Source: a virus
Lineage: Duplodnaviria > Heunggongvirae > Uroviricota > Caudoviricetes
Strand: one strand, 5' to 3'
DNA length: 64,000 bases
Virus record (IMG/VR): IMGVR_UViG_3300035492_000080
Span: 1 to 64,000 of that record
How positions within the stretch are numbered: the first letter of the stretch is position 1; each line of letters starts with the position of its first letter. The notes beneath the pieces are model-generated. The model made no database searches and was not told the DNA's origin. It worked only from the letters and a program-made list of their open reading frames with translations. Positions 36,370 to 49,950 of the stretch are shown in pieces. Position numbers and translations under genes: made by a program.

Positions 36370-36461
36370 GAACATGCTGGGAATCGAACCCAGATTACCA
36401 TTAGCACGGAATCGAACCGTGTCTTCGGCCTGCGCAAAACCGTACACCAAGTATCATGCTC
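36370..36461 (-). tRNA. unusual 92-nt tRNA-like element with two tandem T-arm-like hairpins; no encoded CCA
   Basis: 7-bp acceptor GAGCATG/CATGTTC pairs across 92 nt; hairpins CACGG-TTCGATT-CCGTG and CTGGG-TTCGATT-CCCAG; anticodon arm not confidently assignable. Confidence 0.35.
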
Positions 36462-36466
36462 AAAAT

Positions 36467-36540
36467 TGGTGCCCCATCACAGAATCGAACTGCGTTCACG
36501 GCGTTACAAAGGCCGGGTAATACCAATATACGAAAAGGGC
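36467..36540 (-). tRNA. tRNA-Thr (anticodon TGT)
   Basis: 74 nt; anticodon stem CGGCC/CGCCG (C.C closing), loop TTTGTAA; T-loop TTCGATT; acceptor GCCCTTT/ATGGGGC 6 of 7. Confidence 0.5.
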
Positions 36541-36554
36541 AAATAAACTAAATT

Positions 36555-36629
36555 TGGTTGGAGCCAGAGATTCGAACTCTCCTTCCGAGGTCACAACCCA
36601 GCGTGCTATCCGCTAACACTAAACTCCAC
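36555..36629 (-). tRNA. tRNA-His (anticodon GTG) with extra 5' G(-1)
   Basis: Acceptor TGGAGTT/GGCTCCA preceded by G; D stem GTGT/GCAC; anticodon stem CTGGG/CTCGG (G-U pairs), loop TTGTGAC. Confidence 0.6.
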
Positions 36630-36635
36630 ACTGTT

Positions 36636-36712
36636 TGGCGCTCCCTGCTGGACTCGAACCAGCAACATTCCGCTTAGAAGGCGGAAAGTCTATCCAATTG
36701 ACCTAAGAGAGC
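36636..36712 (-). tRNA. tRNA-Arg (anticodon TCT)
   Basis: 77 nt; acceptor GCTCTCT/AGGGAGC; anticodon stem TCCGC/GCGGA, loop CTTCTAA; T-arm GCTGG-TTCGAGT-CCAGC. Confidence 0.7.
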
Positions 36713-37606: not shown

Positions 37607-37758
37607 AATTCACTATTTATCTCCTAATATAAATATATTTATTTAAATATTTAAAATATATAAATTAATAATTATAAATATTTAATATATTTATAATTAT
37701 ACCATTAGTATTACAGATTGTCAATACCCTTGGTGAAAATTTTTATGAGATTTTTCTG

Positions 37759-38417: not shown

Positions 38418-39179
38418 ATGCCGAGAAAAAATGGGAACGTTACACGCGGTGAGCGTCGTCAAAGTCAACGCAATAAGCAACAAAAAACAGAACGTGTTCT
38501 TGACCCTCGTTTCAATGAAGAGCGTGAGAAGCTTATTAAGCCAGTCCTAGCTAAAAATGCTCATCAGAAAGAGTATCTGCGCAGTATCATGAGTAATATG
38601 ATCACTGTGGGCAGAGGGAGTGCTGGCACGGGCAAAACTTGGTGTGCTGCGGCGATGGCTTCTAATATGTACCTTAAGGGGGAAATTGATAAAATTGTTG
38701 TAATGCGACCACTTGTCGGGATGGGCAAATCTTCTGGTTTTTGGCCGGGGACGATTCAAGATAAACTTGGACCATACCTTGCTCCAATTCTCTCTACAAT
38801 CCGTGAACGTATTGGCGATGCTAGGTATGAGAACGATTTCAATAAAAATATCGTAATTCAGCCAATGGAAGCTGTTCGTGGTATGAATTTTAATGAAAAA
38901 ACATTCATCATTATTGATGAAGCTCAGAACTGCACACCTGAAGAAATTAGAAGTCTTACCACCCGTCTGGCCGAGGGGAGTAGGGCAGTATTTTGTGGTG
39001 ACAGTAAGCAAAAAGATTTGCAAGGGATGTCTGGGATAGATTATCTTTGTAATCTTATCAGCAAGCACAGTATCGAGAATTGTGGATTTGTTGACTTTAC
39101 ACCGGAAGATATCGTGCGATCAGGCTTGACACGAGTTTTTGTTGAGTTGTATGATGCCGAAGGACCATGCCCTAAATAA
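38418..39179 (+). CDS. phoH: PhoH-like ATPase
   Basis: 253 aa; Walker A GSAGTGKTW, Walker B IIIDEAQN, typical phage PhoH length. Confidence 0.8.
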   Translation: MPRKNGNVTRGERRQSQRNKQQKTERVLDPRFNEEREKLIKPVLAKNAHQKEYLRSIMSNMITVGRGSAGTGKTWCAAAMASNMYLKGEIDKIVVMRPLVGMGKSSGFWPGTIQDKLGPYLAPILSTIRERIGDARYENDFNKNIVIQPMEAVRGMNFNEKTFIIIDEAQNCTPEEIRSLTTRLAEGSRAVFCGDSKQKDLQGMSGIDYLCNLISKHSIENCGFVDFTPEDIVRSGLTRVFVELYDAEGPCPK

Positions 39180-39191
39180 GGAGGAAATTAT

Positions 39192-39869
39192 TTGAACACT
39201 GAAAATCGCCGCAACCCGCAACGAGTGCCAATGAATTTTAAGCCAACGGCACTTGTTAAAACATATCAAAGTAATGTTATTGACATTTACCTTGATGATG
39301 AAATTACCAGCCCTTCAGATTATCGTGAAGTTTACCATGCACTGTCTAATGCTGGTCCTCAAGACTTGGTGAAAATTCATATCAATTCACCCGGTGGGCG
39401 ACTTGACTCTGGTATTCAGATTATCAACCATATTCGTCATTGTGAGGCACTTGTTGTCGGTGTTTTGCATATGGACTGTGCATCTATGGCTTCTGGAATT
39501 TTCTTGGCATGTCATGATTGGGAGATCAATAAGTTTTCAACTATGATGGTTCATAGTTGTTCCTATGGTGCTGGCGGTAAACAGAGTGATATTAAGAACC
39601 GTGTAAACTTCATGACAGATTTTAATGAAAAATTTATTCGTGAGATTTATACTGGATTCTTGACTGAGGAAGAGATTGACCTTATCCTTAAGGGCGACGA
39701 TATTTATTTTTCTGCTGAAGAGATTGACAAGAAACTTGAACAGTTTAAACAATATCGTGAAAGCCTTAAGAACAGTGAGAGTACATCTGAGCTTAAGGAA
39801 GAGGAAGAGATTGTAATTAAGGCTAAGCCTGCGCGTAAGCGTACCTCTAAGTCGGAGAAGCAGGCGTGA
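39192..39869 (+). CDS. ClpP-family serine protease homolog (stand-alone, early region)
   Basis: 225 aa; INSPGG and CASMAS (ClpP active-site Ser region) motifs; TTG start after AAGGAGG; Lys/Glu-rich tail. Confidence 0.55.
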   Translation: MNTENRRNPQRVPMNFKPTALVKTYQSNVIDIYLDDEITSPSDYREVYHALSNAGPQDLVKIHINSPGGRLDSGIQIINHIRHCEALVVGVLHMDCASMASGIFLACHDWEINKFSTMMVHSCSYGAGGKQSDIKNRVNFMTDFNEKFIREIYTGFLTEEEIDLILKGDDIYFSAEEIDKKLEQFKQYRESLKNSESTSELKEEEEIVIKAKPARKRTSKSEKQA

Positions 39870-39941
39870 GCCTGCTTTAAAAGCTCATGGAGGATTTGAT
39901 CTATAGTATTCAAGAATACGTCAATCAGGAGGAATCTTTTT

Positions 39942-40226
39942 GTGGACGTGAAATTGAAAAAACAAATCTCTTTCTGCAAGTTCCTTCGAATCAGGAACAG
40001 TACCGAGAGCATCCCTGTTCGATCTTTCCGGCTAATGAGGAATAAGTATGAGCCGGAACTTGCCCTAGAGGCATATAAGTATGGAGACTTCGTTTATGCG
40101 ATATTTCGTTGCAAGAAGCAAAATGGTAATCGTCTCGCTACTTATTGTGTTAGGTATTGGGTCGGAGATTATGGGAGACTTGACCTATTTTCATACACTG
40201 TTGACACCTCATTTCGAGGTTTCTGA
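39942..40226 (+). CDS. hypothetical protein
   Basis: 94 aa ORF. Confidence 0.3.
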   Translation: MDVKLKKQISFCKFLRIRNSTESIPVRSFRLMRNKYEPELALEAYKYGDFVYAIFRCKKQNGNRLATYCVRYWVGDYGRLDLFSYTVDTSFRGF

Positions 40227-40504
40227 TGGTGGTTGATTGGATTAGAGATAAATATTCCTACAACTTAGTTATAGATACTATCGTACCTCGTTATAAACAC
40301 TCGGATGGTATTTTCAGGGTTGAGACAACAAGTGTAGTTATAAGTAACTTCCTCAAATCTCTTGGTTATGATGGGATTACCCCTGACGGAGCTAGAAAGT
40401 CTTTCTTAATAGAGGGAGATATTCAGTTTTTATTTGATTTTTTGAAAGTTCTGGGTATTGAAAAGAAATATGTATGGAGGACCACGGTTTATGTCAAAGA
40501 TTAA
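40226..40504 (+). CDS. hypothetical protein
   Basis: 92 aa, ATGA overlap. Confidence 0.35.
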   Translation: MVVDWIRDKYSYNLVIDTIVPRYKHSDGIFRVETTSVVISNFLKSLGYDGITPDGARKSFLIEGDIQFLFDFLKVLGIEKKYVWRTTVYVKD

Positions 40505-40754
40505 AATTACTATTCTTGAAGTTAAAGATATGAATCAGGAAGAGTTTACGCCTCCCTCAAAGTGGTATTTTATCAACGCACTCGGTCAGCATATCTATAT
40601 TCACTGTCGTGATCGCACTAATGCCGAGCAATATATCACCGAGACTTATGGTAAGGGTTTCTATAAACTTCGCACATCTTCTCTAGAGAAGAATAAGGGG
40701 GAAGTTACTTGTAAAGGCACTGCTACCCGGAAAGGACAGAAATCTTATAATTGA
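40458..40754 (+). CDS. hypothetical protein
   Basis: 98 aa; start may be internal (MSKIKITILE at about 40491). Confidence 0.3.
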   Translation: MKRNMYGGPRFMSKIKITILEVKDMNQEEFTPPSKWYFINALGQHIYIHCRDRTNAEQYITETYGKGFYKLRTSSLEKNKGEVTCKGTATRKGQKSYN

Positions 40755-40766
40755 TAGGAGAGGGAG

Positions 40767-41252
40767 TTGTTTGATTTTAATAAAATTGTCATAGATAGAG
40801 CCTCACCTTCAGGTATTGCTTGGAGAAACGGTAAGCCCGCAGGTACGCTACGAAAGGATGGGTATTGGAGGGTTGGAAAGGAAAAGGTATATGTCCACAA
40901 AATTGTATGGGAACTTTACTATGGGACCGTGCCTGAAGGTTTTGAGGTTGACCATATTGACGGAAACCCTTCTAACAACTTAATTGAAAATTTACAAATA
41001 AAAACACACGCTGAAAATATGTGCAACACTAAGAAAAGGAAGCACAATAAAACAGGAGTTAATGGGGTGAGTAAGCTTGTTGTGGGAGACTATTCATACT
41101 ACACAGCTCAATGGCATGAGGGAGGTAAACTTATTGTGAAAAGGTTTTCAATTAATAAACTTGGCGACAATTTGGCACTAGCTCTTGCTGTTCAGGCTCG
41201 TAAATCTGCTGAGCAGCTATTAAATAAGTTTACTAACAGGCATGGGACTTAA
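40767..41252 (+). CDS. HNH homing endonuclease (AP2-domain type)
   Basis: 161 aa; VDHIDGNPSNNLIENLQIKTHAENM. Confidence 0.7.
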   Translation: MFDFNKIVIDRASPSGIAWRNGKPAGTLRKDGYWRVGKEKVYVHKIVWELYYGTVPEGFEVDHIDGNPSNNLIENLQIKTHAENMCNTKKRKHNKTGVNGVSKLVVGDYSYYTAQWHEGGKLIVKRFSINKLGDNLALALAVQARKSAEQLLNKFTNRHGT

Positions 41253-41560
41253 TGGATATCAGGGACATTATTATAAATGGGCAAACCTTGAAAAGTGCCC
41301 TTAATGACTTAACAACATATGTGTTAAAAACATTAGGAAGTCCTAAGTACACAACCCAAACCTCGCACACGATATTCTTCTCATACCCGAAGTATGATAT
41401 ATGTTTCTATCTTTCCACATCTACAAATAACTTAAACTTCGCCATAGATTCATATGATAGGCGCGTTAGGAACTACCTTGAGTCAGCTGGGACAGTTTAT
41501 GATTTAAACCAGTTCAAAGATATAGTGGAGATACTTATGGAGGGTGAGAATGCAGATTAA
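41252..41560 (+). CDS. hypothetical protein
   Basis: 102 aa. Confidence 0.35.
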   Translation: MDIRDIIINGQTLKSALNDLTTYVLKTLGSPKYTTQTSHTIFFSYPKYDICFYLSTSTNNLNFAIDSYDRRVRNYLESAGTVYDLNQFKDIVEILMEGENAD

Positions 41561-42227
41561 AGATTTAGATTTGAGAGGATTTAAAGGAAGAATCTTCTTC
41601 ACTACTGATTTACATGGCCACTATAACCTCCTTCATGAAAAATTGAAGGAGGTGGCATTTAATGGGGATAAGGATATTCTTCTGGTTGGTGGGGATTTGT
41701 GTGACAGAGGCCCAGACAGTCAATATGTTTTAGATTACTTGAATGAACCTTGGTTCATATCAATTATGGGTAATCATGAGAAGATGTTGATTGATGCTTA
41801 TGAGAACCCATCAGATAGGAATTGCTATGAGATGCTATTTTTGAATGGTGGTGAGTGGTTTTACAACATTCCTAAAACTAAGCAAAAGGCCATTTATGAC
41901 AGTTTCAAGGAACTCCCATTAGCAATCAAGGTTATAACTGATTCGGAAACAGTTGGAATCGTCCATGCCCAATGTCCCTACGATGATTGGGAAGAATTTT
42001 CCAAAATGACCAAAGCAGAAATTGAGTGGGATGGTGCTGCAACTTCTCAATGGGCTAGGAGTAACTACTTATACCGGAAAGACATCACTATTGGTGGTGT
42101 AGATCGTTTACTTGTTGGACACTCTCCGACAAGTACAGGAGAGGTTGAGGTAATTGGTAATACTTGGTATTGTGACCTTGGGTCTTTCTTCAGAGATAAG
42201 CTCTGTTTATTGGAGATTGGAATTTGA
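41544..42227 (+). CDS. Ser/Thr protein phosphatase (lambda PPase-like metallophosphoesterase)
   Basis: 227 aa; TTDLHG, GDLCDRGPDS, GNHE motifs. Confidence 0.75.
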   Translation: MRMQIKDLDLRGFKGRIFFTTDLHGHYNLLHEKLKEVAFNGDKDILLVGGDLCDRGPDSQYVLDYLNEPWFISIMGNHEKMLIDAYENPSDRNCYEMLFLNGGEWFYNIPKTKQKAIYDSFKELPLAIKVITDSETVGIVHAQCPYDDWEEFSKMTKAEIEWDGAATSQWARSNYLYRKDITIGGVDRLLVGHSPTSTGEVEVIGNTWYCDLGSFFRDKLCLLEIGI

Positions 42228-42637
42228 AAGATAAATATATTGAAGCTCTACTAGATATGGCTGAAAGGTTTGGGCAGACAAGTGAAGCAGTTCGTTTAAA
42301 AGTTGGATGCCTTATCTACAAAAATGACTCAATTATTTCAATGGGTGTTAATGGTCAGCCAGAAGGTTGGCCATCCGAGTTCTGTGAAGGTGAAGACGGG
42401 AAAACTTTGCCAACAGTGAGGCATGCTGAAGATGCTGCTTTGCAGAAGCTTTGCAGAAGCACAGAAACTTCTGTAGGGTCAGTGATGTTTATAAGTCATG
42501 CACCTTGCCTCCCCTGCGCAATAAAGATTGCAACCGCAAAAATTTCTGCGGTATACTACCGCTATGATTATCGACTTAGTGATGGGATTGACTATCTTAG
42601 GTCGAAAGGAATTTTGGTTGAGAAATGTTCGGATTAG
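42224..42637 (+). CDS. dCMP / cytidine deaminase family zinc enzyme
   Basis: 137 aa; HAEDAAL and PCLPCA zinc-binding motifs. Confidence 0.7.
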   Translation: MKDKYIEALLDMAERFGQTSEAVRLKVGCLIYKNDSIISMGVNGQPEGWPSEFCEGEDGKTLPTVRHAEDAALQKLCRSTETSVGSVMFISHAPCLPCAIKIATAKISAVYYRYDYRLSDGIDYLRSKGILVEKCSD

Positions 42638-42882
42638 ACGAGCCAACAATTCTTGAGTGGTGGGAAGAGTGTCAGAAGAGGCTCCCACCAAGAACCAATC
42701 AAATTGGCAGTAAGCTTTTCATGTATATGAAAATCACTGTAATAGAAATTCCTAACAAGGCCTGCTATAATTATCTTGCAGCCTGCGGGTACAGGTGTAA
42801 TCGGAATGGTGAGATGTTACTTTCTGTAAAAGAGTACGATGAGTATATTTCATTTCAAAAAATGATGCTGGAGGGAAAATAG
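42625..42882 (+). CDS. hypothetical protein
   Basis: 85 aa. Confidence 0.3.
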   Translation: MFGLDEPTILEWWEECQKRLPPRTNQIGSKLFMYMKITVIEIPNKACYNYLAACGYRCNRNGEMLLSVKEYDEYISFQKMMLEGK

Positions 42883-43688
42883 TGATTAAATATGAGCTGA
42901 GATGTTCCACATATTTCGTGGATACGATGAAGTTCCCCGGTGGGGAGGTGGGTGTTCGCTTGCCTTCTCCAAAGCATATGAGCGGCGACATCAAGCTTAC
43001 TGCCCACTTGAAAAATAGTGACAATGTGATGCAGTTGCTGATGACTGTGGATGCTATTCGTCGTAATCATCCCGGCTCGAAGATTCATGCAACAATCCCT
43101 TACATCCCATACGCACGGCAAGACCGCGTATGTAATCAGGGTGAGAGTTTAAGTATTGCTGTGATGGCCTCGCTCATTAATTCATGCAAATTTGACACTG
43201 TGACCACGCTTGATCCACACTCAGACGTTGTAGGTGCTCTCATCAACAATCTTGAAATCATCGAACAACATGATATTTTCCAGTGTGTGAAAACATCTTG
43301 GGAAAACACTCACATTGTTGCCCCTGATGGTGGCGCATACAAGAAATGTATGAAGTTTGCACAACGTGTAGGAGCTGCTGGGGTAATTGTCTGTAACAAG
43401 GTGAGAAACCTCAAGACCGGACAGATTGAGAGCCTCACTTGTAGTGAAAATGTTGGAGGAAAAGAGCTTTTTGTTCTAGATGACATTTGTGATGGTGGTA
43501 GAACCTTCGTCGAACTTGCTCAGGAGCTAAAAGGGGCAAAGAGTATTTCTCTGGCGGTGACACACGGAATTTTCTCAAAAGGTGTGGAAGTTGTTGCAAA
43601 GCATTTTGACACTGTGTACACTACCAACTCATTCCACGGCAATGAGCTGCCAGAAGATTGGGCAGATGTTGTGCAGATTAATTATTAA
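42882..43688 (+). CDS. prs: ribose-phosphate pyrophosphokinase (PRPP synthetase)
   Basis: 268 aa; PRPP-binding loop VLDDICDGGRTF, PYARQDR motif. Confidence 0.8.
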   Translation: MIKYELRCSTYFVDTMKFPGGEVGVRLPSPKHMSGDIKLTAHLKNSDNVMQLLMTVDAIRRNHPGSKIHATIPYIPYARQDRVCNQGESLSIAVMASLINSCKFDTVTTLDPHSDVVGALINNLEIIEQHDIFQCVKTSWENTHIVAPDGGAYKKCMKFAQRVGAAGVIVCNKVRNLKTGQIESLTCSENVGGKELFVLDDICDGGRTFVELAQELKGAKSISLAVTHGIFSKGVEVVAKHFDTVYTTNSFHGNELPEDWADVVQINY

Positions 43689-43697
43689 GGAGGGATA

Positions 43698-45245
43698 ATG
43701 AAACTACGGGCCGCAACCGTCACCGACGGATATAAAGTAGGTCACGGCAACATGTATGCCGATGGCACTGAAAAAGTATATAGCAACCTCACCCCACGGA
43801 GTGATAAAATTTATCTTCGAAATGCCACAAAATTTTATGATGGAAAATTGGTTTTTGTAGGTGCTCAGGGTGCTGTTCAAGAAATTCAAGAAATGTGGCA
43901 TCAAACATTTTTTGATATTCCAGCTATCGTGGCTGTCAGTGAATATGCCCGCCGTATGGCCACCTATCTTGGTGGAGAGGTGAAAGCAACTGAACAGCTG
44001 AATGAACTTCACAAGCTCGGTTATCTGCCGCTGGAGATTAAGGCTCTGCCGGAAGGTAGTAAGGTGAAGATGGGCATTCCTGTGATGACAATTACCAACA
44101 CTGATAGTCGCTTCTTCTGGCTTGTCAACTATCTGGAAACTGTTATCAGTAATCTGGTGTGGAAACCATCCACTAACGCAACGATTGCTGCTGAATACAA
44201 AGCAATTTGTGAGCATTACGGCAAACTGACTGGAATGGACGAATTCTCCATTTCTATTCAATGCCATGACTTCTCCATGCGTGGTATGTCTGGTCCTGAA
44301 GATGCTGCCCGGAGTGGCTTTGCACACCTGATAAGTTTTATTGGAACCGACACTCTACCGGCAATGGATTATGCAGAAATGTATTATGATGCTGATCCAG
44401 AAAGTTTGATTGCTATTTCTGTCCCGGCAACGGAACATGCTGTAGCTACAAATAATATCCTATATCTGGAACAGGGTGTACAGGTTATTCCAACAGGTTG
44501 GGATGTTCGCAAGGTAGCTGAGTTGCGCTTCATGCAAGACCTTATCACACGCAAATATCCAACCGGCATTGTGAGCTATGTTGCAGATAGCTTTGACTTT
44601 TGGTCGGTAGTTACTGAGATTGTGCCTTCTCTGAAAGAAGTTATCCTTTCTCGTGAAGCGAATGGTGCAGCTCCCGGTAAGTTGGTGATTCGCCCTGACT
44701 CCGGTGATCCTGTGAAAGTTATTTGTGGAGATGTTGGTGCTCCGATTGGTTCCCCTGAATTTAAAGGTGCTGTTGAGTGCCTGTGGGAAACCTTTGGCGG
44801 AACTGAAACCTCCACTGGCTATAAGCTTCTGGACAGTCACATTGGCCTGATCTACGGTGACAGTATCACCACACAGCGTTGCGAAGAGATTCTTCGCCGT
44901 TTGCAAGAAAAAGGCTTTGCTTCTGGTAATGTGGTGTTTGGTGTTGGAAGTTATACTTATCAGTGTAACACCCGTGACACTTTCGGTTTTGCTGTTAAGG
45001 CAACATACTCTGAAGTTAATGGTGTTCCTGTGAACATTTTTAAAGACCCGAAAACAGATAGCAAGAAGAAGAGTGCAAAAGGGCTTCTGTGTGTTGAACG
45101 TGATGAAGATGGTGAATTCAAGCTGTATGATGAAGTTAGTAAAACAGCAGAACTTGAAGGTTATCTGTACACCATTTTCAAAGATGGTGAGTGGGTGAAG
45201 CGCACAAATCTTGAAGAAATTCGGAGCCGTCTGGTATGGGAGTGA
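43698..45245 (+). CDS. nadV: nicotinamide phosphoribosyltransferase (NAMPT / NadV)
   Basis: 515 aa; length and conserved blocks of NAPRTase family, directly after prs. Confidence 0.8.
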   Translation: MKLRAATVTDGYKVGHGNMYADGTEKVYSNLTPRSDKIYLRNATKFYDGKLVFVGAQGAVQEIQEMWHQTFFDIPAIVAVSEYARRMATYLGGEVKATEQLNELHKLGYLPLEIKALPEGSKVKMGIPVMTITNTDSRFFWLVNYLETVISNLVWKPSTNATIAAEYKAICEHYGKLTGMDEFSISIQCHDFSMRGMSGPEDAARSGFAHLISFIGTDTLPAMDYAEMYYDADPESLIAISVPATEHAVATNNILYLEQGVQVIPTGWDVRKVAELRFMQDLITRKYPTGIVSYVADSFDFWSVVTEIVPSLKEVILSREANGAAPGKLVIRPDSGDPVKVICGDVGAPIGSPEFKGAVECLWETFGGTETSTGYKLLDSHIGLIYGDSITTQRCEEILRRLQEKGFASGNVVFGVGSYTYQCNTRDTFGFAVKATYSEVNGVPVNIFKDPKTDSKKKSAKGLLCVERDEDGEFKLYDEVSKTAELEGYLYTIFKDGEWVKRTNLEEIRSRLVWE

Positions 45246-45697
45246 TGAGATATCGTCAAGGCGACCTTATCCAAGCTCTGAAGAATGGGGAGGTGGGTGT
45301 AATAGCTCACCAAGCCAACTGCATGAATACAATGGGAAGTGGGGTTGCAAAAGCTATCCGTGAAAACTTCCCTGAAGCATATGCGGCAGATTGCGAGACA
45401 GAGCGGGGAGATGCCGATAAACTTGGCAACTATACTTTTGCAGAGAATGAGCATGGGTTGATTTTTAATCTATACGGGCAGTATAATTATGGTCGAGATG
45501 GTGCTCACTATACTCAACTGGCCTCTCTTGAAGAAGCTCTTGAGAATATGGCAATATACTTGACGGATATTGGCTATAAAGGTAAAGTGGGAATCCCGAA
45601 GCTCGGTTGCGGGTTGGGAGGTGCTGATTGGAACCAAGTAGCTCGTGTAGTTTCTCGTGCTCTTGATAACTTTGAAGTGATTGTTTATTCAATTTAA
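45236..45697 (+). CDS. macro-domain protein (ADP-ribose binding / hydrolase family)
   Basis: 153 aa; IAHQANCMNTMGSGVAKAI and KLGCGLGG glycine-rich motifs; overlaps nadV stop. Confidence 0.6.
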   Translation: MGVMRYRQGDLIQALKNGEVGVIAHQANCMNTMGSGVAKAIRENFPEAYAADCETERGDADKLGNYTFAENEHGLIFNLYGQYNYGRDGAHYTQLASLEEALENMAIYLTDIGYKGKVGIPKLGCGLGGADWNQVARVVSRALDNFEVIVYSI

Positions 45698-45708: not shown

Positions 45709-45941
45709 TGTTTTTCTTTTGGCGTACTAAAAAAGAAAGCCCGGAAGCACTAGTAGAAGATGCTCTGAGTGGATTCAATGCAGCAGTGGAGAAGATGAAC
45801 ACTGCTACTGCTCAAATCGAGAGTGCAATTGTTAACCACGAGGTGAATATTTCTGAAATTCAGAAGAAAATCACTGAAGCACAAGAAGCTAAGAGTCGTA
45901 TCACTCGGATCAGTGAGAAGTTTAAGGAGCTGCTAGCTTAA
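45709..45941 (+). CDS. hypothetical coiled-coil protein
   Basis: About 77 aa from ATG at 45709 after AGGAGGAAT RBS. Confidence 0.3.
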
Positions 45942-46501
45942 TGGCAGTTTTCTTTACTTCGGATAATCACCACAGGCATAAGAATATCATCGAATATAGT
46001 GATCGACCTTGGAAGTTCGAAGACCAAACCGCCGAGCTAATTGCTCGGTGGAACAGTCGAGTTGGTAAAAATGATGATGTTTACCACCTTGGAGATTTTG
46101 TGTTTGCCGGTGCAAAAAATTTCAACCAAGTGGTTGAAATAATTAAATCACTTAATGGTAGAATCCATTTTATTAAAGGAAACCATTGTGACTGGAAACT
46201 TTGGGAGATGATCAAGAAAGAGAAACTCCAAAATGTTGTGTGGATTCGGGATTATGCTGAAATCAGTGTAAATAAGCAGAAGATTATTCTGTCGCACTAT
46301 CCATTTGCAATCTGGAACCAGAGTCATCGAGGGAGTTGGCATTTGCATGGCCACTGCCACGGAAGTTATCAGGGCGATGGTAAGGTGTTGGATGTTGGTA
46401 TCGACAACCATCCTGACTTCCAAGTGTTTTCTTTTGAGGAAATTGAGCACTTTATGTCACAGCGTGAATTTGTACAAAACTCACACCACAGGGGAGATTG
46501 A
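45941..46501 (+). CDS. calcineurin-like metallophosphoesterase (putative polynucleotide 3'-phosphatase)
   Basis: 186 aa; DNHH..GDFV..GNHC..HGH motifs; co-located with RNA ligase and kinase. Confidence 0.65.
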   Translation: MAVFFTSDNHHRHKNIIEYSDRPWKFEDQTAELIARWNSRVGKNDDVYHLGDFVFAGAKNFNQVVEIIKSLNGRIHFIKGNHCDWKLWEMIKKEKLQNVVWIRDYAEISVNKQKIILSHYPFAIWNQSHRGSWHLHGHCHGSYQGDGKVLDVGIDNHPDFQVFSFEEIEHFMSQREFVQNSHHRGD

Positions 46502-46502
46502 G

Positions 46503-47387
46503 ATGTTTGCGGATTTGATTGAAAAGAAGCTGGTAAAAGAGAAGAAGTACCCAAATGGATTGTCCATCTACAAATATAACAACCGGGTTTTCTATGACAA
46601 CCTTTGGCATCTGGACAATCGAATCCTCGAAGCTCGTGGAATGGTTTTGAATTCTAATGGTGAGAAGGTTATTTGGCCATTCACTAAAGTGTTTAATCGT
46701 TTCGAAAACGGTACAGATTGTGACCCAAATAGTCTAGTTGAAATGGTTGAGAAGGTTAACGGGTTTATGGCGGCGGCACGGATGTGGAATGGTGAGCTTC
46801 TAGTAAGCAGCACTGGAACTCTTGATTCCGACTATGTAAAGCTTGCACGAAAAGTCATCATGGGATGTCAACCCCTTAATGCGGACTTCTGGGATACCTA
46901 TTCTGGACTGACGCTGATGTTTGAAATCTGTGATGAGAGCGACCCACACATTGTTGAAGAGAAGCCGGGGGCATACTTGATTGGTGGCCGTGATATGACA
47001 ACTGGTGATATGCTTCAAGAAGCACAACTTGATGTGATTGCAGACGAGGGAGGTTTCCTGCGTCCACAACACTCTCTTATTTTCTTCGATCAACTCACGG
47101 AGGTTGTAAAAACCTACAAGAAAGAAGGGTTTATGGTGAGGGATGGGTATAGCGGGAAGTATTTGATGAAAATCAAGTCACCTCACTATCTCATCAAGAA
47201 GTTTCTTATGAGAATGGGTGATGCAAAGACAAAACTCATGTTTACAGACACCAATGAACTTTTTAGACAACTGGATGAAGAGTTTTACTGTGTAATTGAG
47301 TGGATTATCACTAACTTCACGGAAGAGCAGTGGACTTCGATGAATGATCAGGTGAGACGAGCAAAGTTGGAGGAATATTTTGGATAA
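46503..47387 (+). CDS. rnlA: RNA ligase 1 (RnlA-like, tRNA repair)
   Basis: 294 aa from internal ATG; YKYNNRVFYDNLWHLDNRILEARGMVL aligns with T4 RnlA N-terminal nucleotidyltransferase region; stop of upstream gene abuts. Confidence 0.65.
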   Translation: MFADLIEKKLVKEKKYPNGLSIYKYNNRVFYDNLWHLDNRILEARGMVLNSNGEKVIWPFTKVFNRFENGTDCDPNSLVEMVEKVNGFMAAARMWNGELLVSSTGTLDSDYVKLARKVIMGCQPLNADFWDTYSGLTLMFEICDESDPHIVEEKPGAYLIGGRDMTTGDMLQEAQLDVIADEGGFLRPQHSLIFFDQLTEVVKTYKKEGFMVRDGYSGKYLMKIKSPHYLIKKFLMRMGDAKTKLMFTDTNELFRQLDEEFYCVIEWIITNFTEEQWTSMNDQVRRAKLEEYFG

Positions 47388-47784
47388 GAGAACTCTTTAT
47401 ATCATTCGTGGACTGCCGGGGGCTGGTAAGTCCACGTTTGCAACAACTCTTAGGAACTCACTTAAGTGCCTGGTGTGGGAAGCTGATCAATACCACACGG
47501 TTAATGGGGAATACCAGTGGAAGCCTGAGAATGTTCGTGCAGCCCATATGTGGTGTCAGGATGGTGTCCGTTCCTGTATGTCCGCAGGACACACAAACGT
47601 GATTGTTTCAAACACATCTACTACAGAGAAAGAGATGAAACCGTATCTTGATATGGCTGGAATTTATGGGTATGATGTTGTCTCATTGGTTGTGGAAAAC
47701 CGTCATGGAAACCCTTCTATTCATGGCGTTCCAGAAGAAACCATGAAAAATATGGAAAACCGTTTTTCTATTAAGTTGAGGTGA
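47380..47784 (+). CDS. P-loop polynucleotide 5'-kinase (Pnk kinase domain only)
   Basis: 134 aa; Walker A GLPGAGKST; overlaps rnlA stop. Confidence 0.55.
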   Translation: MDKRTLYIIRGLPGAGKSTFATTLRNSLKCLVWEADQYHTVNGEYQWKPENVRAAHMWCQDGVRSCMSAGHTNVIVSNTSTTEKEMKPYLDMAGIYGYDVVSLVVENRHGNPSIHGVPEETMKNMENRFSIKLR

Positions 47785-48071
47785 GTGTGGCAGATAAACC
47801 AGATTTAAAAGTATTGTCTTTCACGGACTACCAGAAAAAGGCTGAAAGAAAAAAGAAAGTTGAAGACTTTATTATTAAGTTGAAATCTTTATTCCACATC
47901 AAGAAGGGGTTCGAAAAATATCGAGTAGTGCAGTGGGGAACATATAGTGATACTGGATCAACCTATGTTATTCTTCAAAACTTGAAAAGTGGAAAAATCA
48001 AAGAAAAGGTAGTATCTCGTGTACCTGTTGACAAACAGGCTGTAGAACTTTTTGTACGAAATCTTTGGTAG
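47781..48071 (+). CDS. hypothetical protein
   Basis: 96 aa. Confidence 0.35.
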   Translation: MSVADKPDLKVLSFTDYQKKAERKKKVEDFIIKLKSLFHIKKGFEKYRVVQWGTYSDTGSTYVILQNLKSGKIKEKVVSRVPVDKQAVELFVRNLW

Positions 48072-48079
48072 GAGGATTG

Positions 48080-49135
48080 ATGGAAAAGAAGACGTTGTAT
48101 GGTTTGGACAAGGGTGGTGAATTTAAAGTGTGGGAGATTTCCACCTCTGGTGACATTCTGACGATTGTTCACGGGAAAGAGGGCGGGAAGATGCAAACCA
48201 AGGATGAAACCATTAAAGGTAAGAATATTGGTCGGGCCAATGAAACATCTCCGGCTGAGCAAGCTGAGTTGGAGGCTATGAGCCGTTGGCGTAAGCAGGT
48301 TGATAAGGGCTATCGTGAAAGTAAAGAAGAGCTTAAAGAGCTTCCTATTCTTCCAATGCTAGCACATGATTACTTGAAACAAGGTCATCGTATTGAATAC
48401 CCGTGCTATGGATCGCCTAAGCTAGATGGTGTTCGTTGCCTTGCAATCCGTCATGAGGATCGGGTAGAATTGAAATCTCGTGGAGGTAAGGAATATTTCG
48501 TTGAGCACATTCAACGAGATTTGCTTGGCTCTATGCTACCGGGAGAGATTTTTGATGGGGAGCTTTACATTCACGGTAAATACCTCGAAGAGATTGTTTC
48601 TGCTGTAAAGAAACCAAATGCAGATACCCCGTCTCTGAAGTTTATTATCTTCGACATTGTAAACGATAAAACGTTTGATGGACGGATTCAAGACCTTGCA
48701 GTTGTTCAACGTTTTGGGAAGTCTGTTGAAGAACTTAAATACGTCGTTCTTTACAGCGAGCAGGAGATGAAACAGAAGCACAAGGAATATGTTGCTGCTG
48801 GGTATGAAGGTATTATGCTTCGCAATGGTGACGGTTTGTATGAATCTGGTAAGCGCTCGGCAGATTTGCAGAAATACAAAGAGTTCTTTGATGAAGAGTT
48901 TGTTATCATTGATGTTCGGGAAGATGCTAATGGCAATGCCGTACTTGAGGTGTATGACAACACTGCTGGATGTAATTTCAGTGTTTGCTACGGCAACCAT
49001 GAAGAGCGTAAACATCAGCTTAAAGAAAAACATCTTTACATTGGAAAGAAAATCACTGTAAAATATCAGACTCGGTACAAGGATAGTAAACTTCCGCAAT
49101 TCCCTACAGGTGTAGCTATTAGGGATTACGAATGA
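48080..49135 (+). CDS. ATP-dependent DNA ligase (T7-type, short)
   Basis: About 351 aa from ATG after GGAGG; motif I KLDGVR, OB-fold C-terminus. Confidence 0.75.
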   Translation: MEKKTLYGLDKGGEFKVWEISTSGDILTIVHGKEGGKMQTKDETIKGKNIGRANETSPAEQAELEAMSRWRKQVDKGYRESKEELKELPILPMLAHDYLKQGHRIEYPCYGSPKLDGVRCLAIRHEDRVELKSRGGKEYFVEHIQRDLLGSMLPGEIFDGELYIHGKYLEEIVSAVKKPNADTPSLKFIIFDIVNDKTFDGRIQDLAVVQRFGKSVEELKYVVLYSEQEMKQKHKEYVAAGYEGIMLRNGDGLYESGKRSADLQKYKEFFDEEFVIIDVREDANGNAVLEVYDNTAGCNFSVCYGNHEERKHQLKEKHLYIGKKITVKYQTRYKDSKLPQFPTGVAIRDYE

Positions 49136-49325: not shown

Positions 49326-49550
49326 ATGAAAACTGCTAAAATTTCAGTTGAGCATAGTTGGGATGGTACTGAAACATTGCATGTGTATATGCGATTGTAT
49401 GGAAACACTAAACTCTCTCGCTGGTGGAATATGGTGTCGTCGTTTGGTGCTTTGAACGTAAAGAATTTTGATGAGGCGATTGAAACCGTACAACAAATTA
49501 TTGATATGTCTGATTCAATTTATGGAGGAAAAAATGAACGAAGTAAATAA
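49326..49550 (+). CDS. hypothetical small protein
   Basis: 74 aa. Confidence 0.3.
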   Translation: MKTAKISVEHSWDGTETLHVYMRLYGNTKLSRWWNMVSSFGALNVKNFDEAIETVQQIIDMSDSIYGGKNERSK

Positions 49551-49950
49551 TGAAGTGATTAACACGACTGACCTGCAACAATTCTCTGTTCAGCAGTTTA
49601 TGAGTAAACTTGGCTATACACTGTATCGCACTCAACATGGTGGACTGGTGTTCCTGTATAATTATGCAGGTAAGCACGAATACCGGATGATCGGGATGAA
49701 CACAGCAATCTCTCTTCACAATAGTGGTTGGGACAAGGTTGATGGGAAAGCAACATTCAAGAGTGCAAGCCCTAGCATCGACATCACTGCTGACGCTTAC
49801 ACTGTTGTTCAGGCTGTGTCGGCCAAGGTTGTTGAAAAGGTGAAACTGCAATACTCCTGCAAAAAGAAAACTCTCGTTTGTGGTGATAAAAGCAACCACT
49901 TCGTAAAGTTTGCACTGCCGGAGTATGAATTCCTCTTTATCGGTGAGTAA
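49534..49950 (+). CDS. hypothetical protein
   Basis: About 138 aa from ATG after GGAGGAAAAA RBS. Confidence 0.35.
   Translation: MNEVNNEVINTTDLQQFSVQQFMSKLGYTLYRTQHGGLVFLYNYAGKHEYRMIGMNTAISLHNSGWDKVDGKATFKSASPSIDITADAYTVVQAVSAKVVEKVKLQYSCKKKTLVCGDKSNHFVKFALPEYEFLFIGE

What the first reader, a model, noticed from the sequence alone, without database searches (positions are those of the whole stretch)
45941..49135. Split RNA-repair module: metallophosphoesterase, RnlA-like RNA ligase, stand-alone P-loop kinase, plus a DNA ligase
T4 repairs anticodon-nuclease-cleaved tRNA with bifunctional Pnkp plus Rnl1. Here the end-healing functions are on separate genes: a calcineurin-type phosphoesterase (45941..46501) and a 134-aa P-loop kinase (47380..47784) flank an RnlA homolog (46503..47387). 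Genes abut or overlap at each junction, which argues for one functional unit. An ATP-dependent DNA ligase follows. This kinase/MPE split resembles bacterial Pnkp-Hen1 or Clostridium-phage-type end-healing enzymes rather than T4 Pnkp. It would be a distinct solution to tRNA repair against PrrC- or RloC-type defence, and may also serve the phage's large tRNA set.
Basis: partly seen in the sequence, partly recalled or inferred. Interest (0 to 1): 0.6.

Follow-up and report, generated by a model that had tools for sequence, protein, structure and literature searches.

The report
Phage three-gene RNA break-repair cassette
Three tightly packed phage genes (a metal-dependent phosphoesterase, a T4-Rnl1-like RNA ligase and a small polynucleotide-kinase-like enzyme) most likely mend tRNAs cut by host defence nucleases. 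The cassette is common in phages and already annotated this way, so it is a solid but not surprising find.

Summary
Three co-oriented, abutting or overlapping genes lie at 45941-47784: a binuclear metallophosphoesterase (MPE), an Rnl1-type RNA ligase and a 134-aa P-loop kinase.

- **Ligase.** Its only PDB family match by profile is T4 Rnl1 (E 1.9e-9), which is also the best fold match. Ten of 12 T4 catalytic residues are kept.
- **MPE.** All metal-binding motifs are present. It belongs to the uncharacterised aq_1665/YfcE-like clade, not the lambda-phosphatase/CthPnkp clade.

Context supports RNA repair. In 80 viral contigs with a ligase homologue, the MPE lies within 8 kb in 76 and a PNK-like kinase in 63, in eight trio arrangements. 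In 33 bacterial species the kinase domain is fused to the ligase. The MPE gene follows in 27, often under RtcR and next to Ro60 and a Y RNA.

The DNA ligase is only a neighbour. The genes upstream form the known NARP1-AP NAD+ pathway.

The cassette occurs in about 600 sequenced phages, is partly annotated as RNA repair, and is biochemically untested. Verdict: a new member of a known kind, of moderate interest.

The parts
45941..46501 (+). Stand-alone binuclear metallophosphoesterase (186 aa). [quoted passage not shown]
   Evidence: phrog_547 'phosphoesterase' 3.5e-56. A profile of 40 homologues matches Aquifex aq_1665 (PDB 1xm7) at 3.2e-17, with GpdQ next at 4e-3. Metal-ligand motifs D8-x-H10, G51-D52, G80-N81-H82, H119 and G137-H138-x-H140 are invariant or nearly so. 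It lacks the GDxxDRG/GNHE signature of the lambda-phosphatase/CthPnkp clade. It lies within 8 kb of the ligase in 76/80 viral loci and within 1 kb in 70. It is immediately downstream of the kinase-ligase fusion in 27/33 bacterial loci.
46503..47387 (+). Short (294 aa) T4-Rnl1-family ATP-dependent RNA ligase. Predicted sealing enzyme.
   Evidence: phrog_562 2.8e-52. A profile of 40 homologues hits only T4 Rnl1 in the PDB (2c5u, 1.9e-9, across the whole nucleotidyltransferase domain). The AF2 model has pLDDT 93. The best Foldseek matches are T4 Rnl1 (3e-13, TMq 0.67), then fungal Trl1 ligase domains, then Rnl3. Invariant R45, K62, F64, K84-x-N-G87, E141, E208-G209 and K223-x-K225 align with T4 R54, K75, F77, K99/G102, E159, E227-G228 and K240/K242. 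Homologues occur in 609 phage records.
47380..47784 (+). Stand-alone 134-aa P-loop kinase of the polynucleotide-kinase clade. Predicted RNA 5'-OH kinase.
47781..48071 (+). 96-aa ORF of unknown function. It is translationally coupled to the kinase (GTGA overlap) but is lineage-specific and not a conserved member of the cassette.
   Evidence: No Pfam, PHROG or NCBIfam hit. No homologue was detected in the 80 viral loci at E<=1e-5.
48080..49135 (+). ATP-dependent DNA ligase. It is a neighbour, not part of the repair unit.
   Evidence: PF01068 2.1e-13 and phrog_114 7.5e-85. The ATG 48080 start is supported by an AGGAGG ribosome-binding site and an independent gene call of 351 aa. It lies within 8 kb of the RNA ligase in 31/80 loci and never within 1 kb.

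Best explanation
The three genes at 45941-47784 form a co-transcribed, translationally coupled heal-and-seal RNA repair cassette.

Proposed mechanism:
1. Host ribotoxins or anticodon nucleases cut tRNA (or other translation RNAs) during infection. [quoted passage not shown]
2. The metallophosphoesterase opens the cyclic phosphate and removes the resulting phosphate, giving a 3'-OH.
3. The P-loop kinase transfers a phosphate from an NTP to the 5'-OH. D36 acts as the general base and K17/S18 hold the NTP.
4. The Rnl1-type ligase adenylylates itself on K84, activates the 5'-phosphate and seals the break.

This is functionally the T4 Pnkp + Rnl1 pathway. The kinase is a separate protein, and a metallophosphoesterase replaces the HAD-type phosphatase.

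Shown here: family and fold assignments, conservation of catalytic residues, operon compactness, conserved linkage, domain fusion, and RNA-repair regulon context in bacteria.

Inferred: the substrates, the order of the chemistry, and which host nucleases are countered.
For: **Ligase.**
- T4 Rnl1 is the only PDB family hit for the profile (1.9e-9) and the top fold match (3e-13).
- Ten of the 12 T4 Rnl1 catalytic or essential positions are invariant.

**Kinase.**
- hhalign against T4 Pnk gives 97.4% probability.
- The top profile hits in the PDB are all RNA or polynucleotide kinases.

**MPE.** All metal-binding motifs are invariant.

**Operon.** Start and stop codons abut or overlap, and no convincing internal terminator was found.

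**Linkage in 80 IMG/VR loci.**
- The MPE is present in 76.
- The same kinase family is present in 55, and a second PNK-like kinase family in 8 more.
- Eight trio arrangements occur, five of them with all three families in different orders.

**Co-distribution in INPHARED.** The ligase occurs in 609 records and the kinase in 624. Host-genus counts are nearly identical.

**Bacterial relatives.**
- In 33 bacterial species the kinase domain is fused to the ligase (HMM E 5e-13 to 2e-7; Pfam AAA_33 + PF09511). The MPE gene is immediately downstream in 27.
- RtcR is divergently upstream in 18 of the 33. RtcR senses tRNA halves with cyclic-phosphate ends (PMC7790460).
- Ro60/Rsr precedes the fusion in three Neisseriaceae loci. 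A YrlA Y RNA precedes it in one of them.
Against: - No activity has been measured for any member of these three families that I could find.
- The kinase family lacks an arginine at the position of T4 R38 (H or F instead). The position aligned to T4 R126 is variable. Its mechanism or phosphate acceptor could therefore differ from canonical PNK.
- The MPE clade (aq_1665-like) has no characterised member. Its nearest named relatives (YfcE, GpdQ) are small-molecule phosphodiesterases.
- The MPE family is broader than the ligase (1444 versus 609 phage records), so it can work without the ligase.
- The ligase lacks the T4 K119 equivalent (T104). Its region C-terminal to the nucleotidyltransferase domain is about 65 aa, against about 120 aa in T4, where that domain confers tRNA specificity (T4 role from memory).
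- The cassette sits beside the NARP1-AP NAD+ genes in 35/80 loci. This leaves room for a metabolic link.
Confidence: 0.75

Rival explanations
1. The MPE and kinase belong functionally to the neighbouring NAD+ reconstitution pathway (NARP1-AP). They would process small ADP-ribose-derived molecules such as cyclic phosphates or immune signals, not RNA ends. The ligase would be an unrelated neighbour or would act on a nucleotide-like substrate.
For: - Adps, Namat and the macro-domain Adpp lie directly upstream.
- NARP1 genes lie within 8 kb of the ligase in 35-36 of 80 loci, in several different arrangements.
- The MPE's named relatives are small-molecule phosphodiesterases.
- Accessory enzymes that feed NARP1 are known (10.64898/2026.01.28.702374; 10.64898/2026.05.28.727677).
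Against: - The MPE and kinase track the ligase (76/80 and 63/80), not NARP1. About 45 loci have the cassette without NARP1 in the flanks.
- The kinase is fused to the ligase in bacteria, in RtcR/Ro60/Y-RNA operons that carry no NARP1 genes.
Confidence: 0.07
2. The MPE and kinase heal DNA ends (3'-phosphate, 5'-OH) for the adjacent ATP-dependent DNA ligase. The cluster would then be a DNA nick-repair unit.
For: - In this window the DNA ligase lies only about 300 nt downstream of the kinase gene (about 690 nt from the RNA ligase), in the same operon.
- PNK-type kinases generally accept DNA as well as RNA (for example the Mucorales KIN, PMC11571804).
- A DNA ligase lies within 8 kb in 31/80 loci.
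Against: - In the 80 related loci the DNA ligase is never within 1 kb. It is often on the other side of unrelated genes.
- The partner that is always present, and is fused in bacteria, is the RNA ligase.
- The bacterial context is an RNA-damage regulon.
Confidence: 0.06
3. The cassette joins RNA for the phage's own purposes rather than to counter host nucleases. Examples are maturation or turnover control of its 14 tRNAs or other phage transcripts.
For: - A 14-gene tRNA cluster lies 9 kb upstream.
- The ligase's short C-terminal region may mean a substrate range different from T4 Rnl1.
Against: - ARAGORN and Rfam found no introns or split tRNA genes.
- The bacterial homologues are controlled by RtcR, which responds to damaged tRNA (PMC7790460).
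Confidence: 0.08
4. The Rnl1 homologue serves mainly as a tail-fibre attachment catalyst. This is the second activity of T4 gp63, and many database annotations state it.
For: The PHROG and several GenBank annotations read 'RNA ligase and tail fiber protein attachment catalyst'.
Against: - The annotation is inherited from T4.
- The gene sits in a nucleotide-metabolism and anti-defence block, not in the structural module at 9-34 kb on the other strand.
- Its constant partners are a kinase and a phosphoesterase.
- Bacterial homologues occur in non-phage RNA-repair operons.
Confidence: 0.02

Closest known systems
Phage T4 Pnkp (PseT) + Rnl1 (gp63) tRNA repair pathway against the PrrC anticodon nuclease
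   Same: - The ligase family is the same (Rnl1). T4 Rnl1 is the best sequence-profile and fold match.
- The kinase's best structural match is the T4 Pnk domain.
- The three predicted chemical steps are the same: remove the 2',3'-cyclic or 3'-phosphate, phosphorylate the 5'-OH, then seal with ATP.
   Different: - The phosphatase is a separate binuclear metallophosphoesterase, not a HAD (DxDxT) domain fused to the kinase.
- The kinase lacks equivalents of T4 R38 and probably R126.
- The ligase has 294 aa against 374. Its C-terminal region is much shorter, and it has T104 in place of K119.
- All three genes are adjacent, whereas the T4 genes are dispersed (from memory).
Clostridium thermocellum Pnkp-Hen1 and Capnocytophaga Pnkp1-Rnl-Hen1 bacterial RNA repair systems
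   Same: - End healing uses a PNK-type kinase plus a metallophosphoesterase rather than a HAD phosphatase.
- CthPnk and Pnkp1 are among the best matches for the kinase.
- In Pnkp1-Rnl-Hen1 the ligase is a separate polypeptide (PMC4411300).
   Different: - The MPE here is of the aq_1665/YfcE-like clade, not the lambda-phosphatase/PPP clade of CthPnkp (PMC2190708).
- The ligase is Rnl1-type.
- No Hen1 methyltransferase turned up among the ORFs scanned.
- The three activities are on three separate proteins.
Fungal/plant tRNA ligase Trl1, and the split Mucorales system (stand-alone ligase plus stand-alone kinase)
   Same: - Trl1 ligase domains are the second-best fold matches for the ligase.
- The Mucorales stand-alone RNA 5'-OH kinase (9d8a) is the top PDB hit for the kinase profile.
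- Mucorales likewise split the ligase and kinase activities onto separate proteins (PMC11571804, PMC10946426).
   Different: - Trl1 systems use a 2H cyclic phosphodiesterase. They seal 3'-OH,2'-PO4 ends and need Tpt1 afterwards.
- No 2H enzyme or Tpt1/KptA was found here among the ORFs scanned.
- The healing enzyme here is an MPE.
RtcR-regulated rsr-yrlBA-rtcBA RNA repair operon of Salmonella and E. coli
   Same: Bacterial relatives of this cassette occupy the same regulatory and genomic niche. They have a divergent rtcR, then a Y RNA (YrlA), Ro60/Rsr and the repair enzymes (PMC7790460).
   Different: - The repair enzymes are a kinase-Rnl1 fusion plus an MPE (ATP-dependent joining of 3'-OH and 5'-P). 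They are not RtcB/RtcA, which directly join 3'-P or cyclic-P ends to 5'-OH.
- The phage version carries no RtcR, Rsr or Y RNA.
Computationally described phage neighbourhoods: rV5/Mydo type (PMC9503650, section 3.7.3) and phi92 gp095-097 'RNA ligase / RNA repair'
   Same: - The ligase and kinase families are the same. rV5-like and phi92-like phages are among the tblastn hits.
[quoted passage not shown]
   Different: - The rV5-type neighbourhood is centred on a sirtuin with cREC and MazG. None of these was seen next to the cassette in this window.
- Here the flanking genes are NARP1-AP and a DNA ligase.

Membership tests
Rnl1 (T4 RnlA/gp63) family of ATP-dependent RNA ligases | Nucleotidyltransferase motif I lysine (KxxG) that forms the enzyme-AMP adduct (T4 K99, G102) | tested here: met
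   K84-V-N-G87 is invariant in 40 homologues and aligns with T4 K99-E-D-G102.
Rnl1 (T4 RnlA/gp63) family of ATP-dependent RNA ligases | Motifs III, IV and V (T4 E159; E227-G228; K240, K242) | tested here: met
   E141, E208-G209 and K223/K225 are invariant and aligned in the profile-to-2c5u alignment.
Rnl1 (T4 RnlA/gp63) family of ATP-dependent RNA ligases | Rnl1-specific N-terminal essential residues (T4 R54, K75, F77) and K119 (list recalled from memory of T4 mutagenesis work) | tested here: inconclusive
   R45, K62 and F64 are invariant and aligned with R54, K75 and F77. K119 aligns with a nearly invariant threonine (T104), and T4 D101 aligns with N86.
Rnl1 (T4 RnlA/gp63) family of ATP-dependent RNA ligases | The Rnl1 fold is the closest among RNA ligase families | tested here: met
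   Foldseek against the PDB ranks T4 Rnl1 entries 1-3 (E 3e-13, TMq 0.67), ahead of Trl1, Rnl3, Rnl5 and Rnl2. T4 Rnl1 is the only family hit for the profile in PDB sequences.
Rnl1 (T4 RnlA/gp63) family of ATP-dependent RNA ligases | Pfam PF09511 / TIGR02308 curated score thresholds | tested here: not met
   The window protein gave no Pfam hit even at E<=10. TIGR02308 scored 17.4 bits against a cut-off of 242. Many 50-55% identical homologues carry PF09511, and the bacterial fused relatives pass it (32.8 against 28.3 bits). The protein is a divergent subfamily.
Rnl1 (T4 RnlA/gp63) family of ATP-dependent RNA ligases | C-terminal all-helical domain of about 120 aa that confers tRNA specificity in T4 Rnl1 (from memory) | tested here: inconclusive
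   The region after motif V is about 65 aa, with five short helices at pLDDT about 90. It is helical but roughly half the T4 size, and equivalence was not established.
Rnl1 (T4 RnlA/gp63) family of ATP-dependent RNA ligases | ATP-dependent sealing of 3'-OH/5'-PO4 RNA ends | not testable with these tools
   Needs an enzyme assay.
Polynucleotide 5'-OH kinase (T4 Pnk / CthPnk / Trl1-KIN clade of P-loop kinases) | Walker A P-loop GxxGxGK[ST] | tested here: met
   G11-L-P-G14-A-G16-K17-S18. G14, G16 and K17 are invariant and G11 nearly so.
Polynucleotide 5'-OH kinase (T4 Pnk / CthPnk / Trl1-KIN clade of P-loop kinases) | Catalytic aspartate general base after strand 2 (T4 D35, Cth D38, MciKIN D36) | tested here: met
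   D36 is invariant and aligns with T4 D35.
Polynucleotide 5'-OH kinase (T4 Pnk / CthPnk / Trl1-KIN clade of P-loop kinases) | Arginine three residues after the aspartate (T4 R38, Cth R41) | tested here: not met
   The aligned position is H or F in all 36 sequences. An unusual invariant R10, just before the P-loop, might substitute. This is untested.
Polynucleotide 5'-OH kinase (T4 Pnk / CthPnk / Trl1-KIN clade of P-loop kinases) | Lid arginines (T4 R122, R126) | tested here: inconclusive
   Invariant R108 aligns with T4 R122. The column aligned with R126 is variable, while H109 and H115 are invariant. This is a loop region, so the alignment is uncertain.
Polynucleotide 5'-OH kinase (T4 Pnk / CthPnk / Trl1-KIN clade of P-loop kinases) | The closest structures are polynucleotide or RNA kinases rather than (d)NMP kinases | tested here: met
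Polynucleotide 5'-OH kinase (T4 Pnk / CthPnk / Trl1-KIN clade of P-loop kinases) | Phosphorylation of 5'-OH RNA or DNA ends | not testable with these tools
   Needs an enzyme assay.
Binuclear metallophosphoesterase (calcineurin-like) superfamily | Metal-ligand motifs DxH, GD, GNH[DE], H and GHxH in order | tested here: met
   D8-x-H10, G51-D52, G80-N81-H82, H119 and G137-H138-x-H140 are invariant or at least 90% conserved in 40 sequences.
Lambda-phosphatase / CthPnkp phosphatase (PPP-like) clade of metallophosphoesterases | GDxxDRG and GNHE signatures, and closest similarity to lambda-phosphatase or Pnkp phosphatase domains | tested here: not met
   The motifs read LGDFxF and GNHC/D. The best PDB relative is aq_1665 (3e-17), and no PPP-family hit appeared at E<=1. 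hhalign against the window's own lambda-type MPE gives only 12.7% probability.
Pnkp-Hen1 RNA repair system | Hen1 3'-terminal 2'-O-methyltransferase partner, and a fused kinase-phosphatase-ligase protein | tested here: not met
   The three activities are on three proteins. No methyltransferase domain was found among the ORFs of 38.4-52.5 kb that were scanned. Small ORFs below 70 aa were not all scanned.
NARP1-AP NAD+ reconstitution operon (neighbouring genes 42882-45697) | Adjacent Prs-like (Adps) and Nampt-like (Namat) genes, with a Macro-domain protein within two genes. This is the operational definition used in 10.64898/2026.01.28.702374. | tested here: met
   - Prs-like: PF13793/PF00156/PF14572 and phrog_619 2.9e-89.
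- Nampt-like: PF04095 4e-39 and phrog_448 1e-196.
- Macro: PF01661 4.1e-8, directly downstream.
Enzyme specificities (ADPR rather than ribose-5-P) were not tested.

The most novel reading that the evidence does not exclude
The cassette may not be a simple copy of T4-style chemistry. It would be the phage form of an unstudied RtcR/Ro60/Y-RNA-linked bacterial repair system. Its kinase lacks two canonical PNK arginines, and its phosphoesterase belongs to an uncharacterised clade. It might therefore produce or use unusual ends, for example 2'-phosphate-bearing junctions as Trl1 does.

Removal of such a 2'-phosphate by a host KptA-type enzyme would yield ADP-ribose cyclic phosphate and ADPR-1''-phosphate. 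These would be recycled by the adjacent Poa1p-like macro phosphatase (Adpp) and NARP1. RNA repair and NAD+ reconstitution would then be chemically coupled in one counter-defence island.
Probability: 0.07. Interest if true: 0.75.

Novelty: new member of a known kind. Interest (0 to 1): 0.38.

Why it matters
Cutting tRNA is a common bacterial defence against phages. Only one phage repair pathway has been worked out experimentally: T4 Pnkp plus Rnl1.

This cassette is a compact alternative with a different phosphatase and a minimal kinase. It is carried by hundreds of phages of Escherichia, Pseudomonas, Vibrio, Klebsiella and Acinetobacter, including therapy-relevant genera such as Pakpunavirus and phi92-like phages.

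Knowing that it is a repair unit has two practical uses. It tells experimenters which three genes to delete or transplant when asking why some phages escape tRNA-targeting defences. It also points to an unstudied bacterial counterpart under RtcR control.

For this window it is a confident functional annotation rather than a discovery. It sits next to the NAD+-rebuilding NARP1-AP genes, so the region reads as an anti-defence island.

Tried and rejected
- **Direct Pfam scans of the MPE and ligase** gave nothing, even at E<=10. I switched to PHROGs, homologue profiles against the PDB, and predicted folds.
- **Megablast of the region against 50,697 phage records** found only a 44-bp match. No close sequenced relative exists. 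The portal protein is 52-57% identical to Otagovirus-like and other Pseudomonas phages.
- **Single-sequence PDB searches** were weak for the ligase (E 0.004) and uninformative for the kinase.
- **Literature searches for biochemical work** on the aq_1665 clade, phi92 gp095-097 or this cassette found nothing. The Burroughs & Aravind 2016 RNA-repair survey is not held in the library, so I cannot say how much of the bacterial context is already described there.
- **Tpt1/KptA, 2H, Hen1 or sirtuin partners** were not found in the window's larger ORFs.
- **My sigma-54 promoter pattern** matched only one bacterial locus cleanly (L098). The Moraxella loci have a near-match, TGGCACAAGATTTGG. I do not rely on it.
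- **The lambda-phosphatase-like MPE at 41544-42227** was considered as the true healing enzyme. It was rejected as the main partner because it accompanies the ligase in only 4/80 loci, against 76/80 for the adjacent MPE.
- **The DNA ligase** was considered as part of the unit and rejected on the same statistics.

Full report
**What is in the sequence.**
The stretch 45941-49135 lies inside a long block of + strand genes, roughly 37.8-52.5 kb. GC skew is positive across the block.
- The 186-aa ORF (45941-46501) overlaps the stop of an upstream 86-aa ORF by one base (TAATG).
- The 294-aa ORF (46503-47387) starts one base after the previous stop.
- The 134-aa ORF (47380-47784) overlaps the ligase by 8 nt. 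It starts at a TTG five bases after GGAGGA.
- A 96-aa ORF (47781-48071) overlaps the kinase by GTGA.
- The DNA ligase follows. It most likely starts at ATG 48080 behind AGGAGG rather than at TTG 48065.

Gene calls made independently on two metagenome contigs with an identical ligase give the same products, including a 351-aa DNA ligase. Promoter-like and terminator-like matches in the block are no more frequent than in shuffled sequence. No convincing + strand terminator interrupts the genes. Rfam finds only the tRNA cluster at 34.3-36.7 kb.

**The ligase.**
Pfam gives no hit, even at E<=10. PHROGs places the protein in the T4 Rnl1 family (phrog_562, 2.8e-52).

A profile of 40 homologues (alignment A3, 48-83% identical) hits only T4 Rnl1 among all PDB sequences. 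The match is 1.9e-9 and covers the whole nucleotidyltransferase domain. An AlphaFold model (pLDDT 93) has T4 Rnl1 as its three best Foldseek matches (3e-13, TMq 0.67). Fungal Trl1 ligase domains come next, then archaeal Rnl3.

The invariant residues R45, K62, F64, K84, G87, E141, E208, G209, K223 and K225 line up with T4 R54, K75, F77, K99, G102, E159, E227, G228, K240 and K242. T4 K119 and D101 correspond to T104 and N86. The list of essential T4 residues is from memory.

The region after motif V is about 65 residues of short helices. This is about half the size of the T4 C-terminal domain. The protein is a divergent, short member of the Rnl1 family.

**The kinase.**
Pfam AAA_33 (1.9e-11) and phrog_2071 'ATPase' (6.5e-51) are uninformative. 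There are weaker hits to phrog_505 'polynucleotide kinase' and to the N-terminus of phrog_8238, a 737-position profile labelled RNA ligase.

A 36-sequence profile (A1) gives these top PDB hits: the Mucorales stand-alone RNA 5'-OH kinase, tRNA(Sec) kinase PSTK, Pnkp1 of the Pnkp1-Rnl-Hen1 complex, T4 Pnk and Clostridium thermocellum Pnk (5e-6 to 1e-4). hhalign against the T4 Pnk domain gives 97.4% probability, E 1.1e-11.

The AlphaFold model (pLDDT 87) has T4 Pnk as best match by two methods:
- Foldseek: 1ly1, TMq 0.76.

The 'dNMP kinase' refutation therefore does not apply. There is one caveat. K17, S18, D36 and R108 match T4 K15, S16, D35 and R122. But T4 R38 is replaced by H or F, and the column under R126 is variable. 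The family instead has its own invariant R10, H56, C59, H109, H115 and R128. The clade is PNK-like with a modified active site.

**The phosphoesterase.**
Pfam gives no hit. PHROGs gives phrog_547 'phosphoesterase' at 3.5e-56.

In 40 homologues (A2) all canonical binuclear-metal motifs are invariant or nearly so: D8-x-H10, G51-D52, G80-N81-H82, H119 and G137-H138-x-H140. The profile's only strong PDB relative is the structural-genomics protein Aquifex aq_1665 (1xm7, 3.2e-17). GpdQ follows at 4e-3. NCBIfam gives a weak YfcE phosphodiesterase hit, and some homologues carry Pfam Metallophos_2.

The protein lacks the GDxxDRG/GNHE signature of lambda phosphatase and of the CthPnkp phosphatase domain. 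The same phage encodes a protein with exactly that signature at 41544-42227 (phrog_246 'NinI-like', PF00149 8.5e-17). The two are barely related (hhalign probability 12.7%). I found no functional study of the aq_1665 clade.

**Do the three genes belong together?**
tblastn finds ligase homologues in 609 of 50,697 phage records and kinase homologues in 624. The host-genus profiles are almost identical: Escherichia 199/198, Pseudomonas 175/173, Klebsiella 36/36, Acinetobacter 24/24 and Campylobacter 23/23. The MPE family is wider, at 1444 records including Staphylococcus, Listeria and Enterococcus phages.

Annotated relatives show the same MPE-ligase-kinase order:
- REC1 (Otagovirus).
- Paula, a phi92-like phage, where the ligase is annotated 'RNA ligase / RNA repair'.
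- PaP1 (Pakpunavirus).

I fetched 80 IMG/VR loci with a ligase homologue, 34-54% identical. I scanned their six-frame ORFs with HMMs of the three families.
- The MPE is within 8 kb in 76 loci and within 1 kb in 70.
- The kinase is present in 55 loci and within 1 kb in 53.
- In 8 further loci a different, more canonical PNK-like kinase occupies the slot next to the MPE and ligase.
- Eight trio arrangements occur (plus four loci with the ligase alone). Five contain all three families in different orders, including one divergent arrangement.
- By contrast, a DNA ligase is within 8 kb in 31 loci and never within 1 kb. The lambda-type MPE accompanies the ligase in only 4.

**Bacterial relatives.**
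A scan of one genome per species gave 39 loci. In 33 of them the ligase is the C-terminal half of a roughly 500-aa protein. These come from Moraxella, Kingella, Neisseria, Alysiella, Simonsiella, Conchiformibius, Cardiobacteriaceae and Pasteurellaceae.
- The N-terminal domain matches the phage kinase HMM (E 5e-13 to 2e-7). It shares the family's peculiar xRGxxGxGKS P-loop. Pfam gives AAA_33 + PF09511.
- The MPE gene follows directly in 27 of the 33.
- Divergently upstream in 18 of the 33 lies RtcR, with an RtcR/CARF domain plus a sigma-54 activator domain.
- In Kingella, Alysiella and Neisseria loci a Ro60/Rsr homologue precedes the fusion gene (TROVE + vWA_Ro60). In the Kingella locus a YrlA Y RNA also precedes it (Rfam RF02553 at its gathering score).

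This mirrors the Salmonella rtcR / rsr-yrlBA-rtcBA operon. RtcR there is activated by tRNA halves that end in a cyclic phosphate (PMC7790460). In these bacteria a kinase-Rnl1 fusion plus the MPE takes the place of RtcB and RtcA. The domain fusion and the regulon context are the strongest evidence that the three phage proteins act together on broken RNA.

**Mechanism.**
The best-supported reading is a T4-like heal-and-seal pathway on separate proteins.
1. The MPE removes the 2',3'-cyclic or 3'-phosphate.
2. The kinase phosphorylates the 5'-OH.
3. The Rnl1-type ligase seals the break using ATP.

The likely purpose is to counter host anticodon nucleases. This would complement the phage's 14 tRNA genes. 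The substrates, the metal and NTP preferences, and the defence systems countered are inferred, not shown. I put confidence at 0.75.

Rival readings:
- An adjunct to NAD+ metabolism.
- DNA-end repair for the neighbouring DNA ligase.
- Processing of the phage's own RNA.
- Tail-fibre attachment.

Each explains less of the linkage and fusion data. Together they take most of the remaining probability.

**Surroundings.**
Directly upstream lie a Prs-like gene, a Nampt-like gene and a Macro-domain gene (42882-45697). This matches the published NARP1 pathway, in which Adps and Namat rebuild NAD+ from ADP-ribose and nicotinamide (10.1101/2024.02.11.579819). It also matches the extension NARP1-AP, in which a Poa1p-like macro phosphatase (Adpp) converts ADPR-1''-phosphate to ADPR (10.64898/2026.01.28.702374).

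NARP1 genes lie within 8 kb of the ligase in 35-36 of the 80 viral loci, in several arrangements. This looks like an anti-defence island. A chemical link between the two modules cannot be excluded, but nothing here supports one.

**Novelty and score.**
The cassette is widespread. It is already labelled 'RNA ligase / RNA repair', 'polynucleotide kinase' or 'phosphoesterase' in some records. A related neighbourhood, with a T4-like tRNA ligase, a nucleotide kinase and an occasional calcineurin-like phosphoesterase, has been described computationally (PMC9503650, section 3.7.3). General statements about kinases and phosphoesterases accompanying phage RNA ligases appear in PMC7824862.

I found no biochemical or genetic study of it. 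The window's copy is thus a new member of a known, computationally predicted kind. The kind itself is an untested variant of the T4 pathway. A specialist would not be surprised. The value lies in a firm annotation, a clear experimental handle, and the pointer to RtcR-controlled bacterial counterparts. Interest: 0.38.

Noticed in passing
window 42882-45697 (+): A Prs-like gene (42882-43688), a Nampt-like gene (43698-45245) and a Macro-domain gene (45236-45697) lie directly upstream of the cassette. They fit the published NARP1-AP NAD+ reconstitution operon (Adps, Namat, Adpp), which counters NAD+-depleting defences including aRES. NARP1 genes lie within 8 kb of the RNA ligase in 35-36 of 80 related viral loci.
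   Followed up: partly
window 41544-42227 (+): The same gene block holds a second metallophosphoesterase of the lambda-phosphatase/NinI type, with DLHGH, GDLCDRG and GNHE motifs. This is the clade to which the CthPnkp RNA-end phosphatase belongs. It also weakly matches the middle of phrog_8238 ('RNA ligase', 737 positions), whose N-terminus matches the kinase. It accompanies the RNA ligase in only 4/80 related loci (Vibrio-phage-like contigs L038, L041, L043, and L049).
   Followed up: partly
L089-L124 (bacterial genome loci), e.g. L116 5377-7647, L099 5329-7559: In 33 bacterial species (Moraxella, Kingella, Neisseria, Alysiella, Simonsiella, Conchiformibius, Cardiobacteriaceae, Pasteurellaceae) the kinase domain is fused to the N-terminus of the Rnl1-like ligase, giving a protein of about 500 aa. 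The MPE gene follows in 27 of them. RtcR is divergently upstream in 18.
   Followed up: yes
L089 1-6870; L112 512-6867; L106 480-6909: In these Neisseriaceae loci the order is rtcR (divergent), a Ro60/Rsr gene (TROVE + vWA_Ro60), a small ORF and the kinase-ligase fusion, followed by the MPE in L112 and L106. In L089 a YrlA Y-RNA-like element (Rfam RF02553, L089 1982-2116) and a tRNA-like Rfam hit (L089 1618-1762) also precede Ro60. This is the layout of the Salmonella rsr-yrlBA-rtcBA operon with different repair enzymes.
   Followed up: partly
L109, L104, L089: about 60-200 nt upstream of the fusion gene start: A conserved sequence ending in GCGGGTTCGAATCCCGTC...TCCACCA (a tRNA-like T-arm, acceptor stem and CCA) lies just upstream of the kinase-ligase fusion. 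ARAGORN does not call it a tRNA. It may be another Y-RNA or tRNA-like module.
   Followed up: no
L063 6691-7164, L067 7489-7956 and six similar viral loci: In more distant viral relatives the kinase slot is filled by a different PNK-like family of about 155 aa, with GVPGAGKST, an STD aspartate and an RRLASRPGKxIP lid. This looks like a paralogous replacement within the same cassette. A Cys-based phosphatase ORF (HCxxGxxRS motif) sits nearby in L063 and L067.
   Followed up: partly
L074 6558-7115: An ORF with a GGQ motif (AGGQHRNK), resembling a peptide-release-factor or ArfB/PrfH-type peptidyl-tRNA hydrolase domain, lies immediately upstream of the MPE-ligase pair. This suggests a link to ribosome rescue.
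   Followed up: no
window 34333-36712 (-) and 37696-37724: A cluster of 14 tRNA genes (Ser x2, Lys, Leu, Pro, Asn, Met, Ile, Phe, Asp, Gly, Thr, His, Arg) lies on the minus strand. A perfect sigma-70 consensus (TTGACA-17-TATAAT with an upstream TG) on the minus strand at 37724-37696 faces it. The region is divergent from the + strand block that holds the cassette.
   Followed up: no
window 38418-42637 and 133-3036: Other genes of the block are PhoH-like (38418-39179), ClpP-like protease (39192-39869), an HNH endonuclease with an AP2-like domain (40767-41252; possibly a homing endonuclease) and dCMP deaminase (42224-42637). Ribonucleotide reductase large and small subunits lie at 133-3036. DUF7390 is at 49468-49950.
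   Followed up: no
whole window: There is no close sequenced relative. Megablast of the region finds only a 44-bp match. The portal protein (30506-31990, minus strand) is 52-57% identical to Otagovirus-like and other Pseudomonas myoviruses. The ligase is 100% identical to a protein on contigs of up to 89 kb in metagenomes (JGI, and Logan runs SRR11791769/70). The window appears to come from an undescribed myovirus lineage of about 90 kb.
   Followed up: partly
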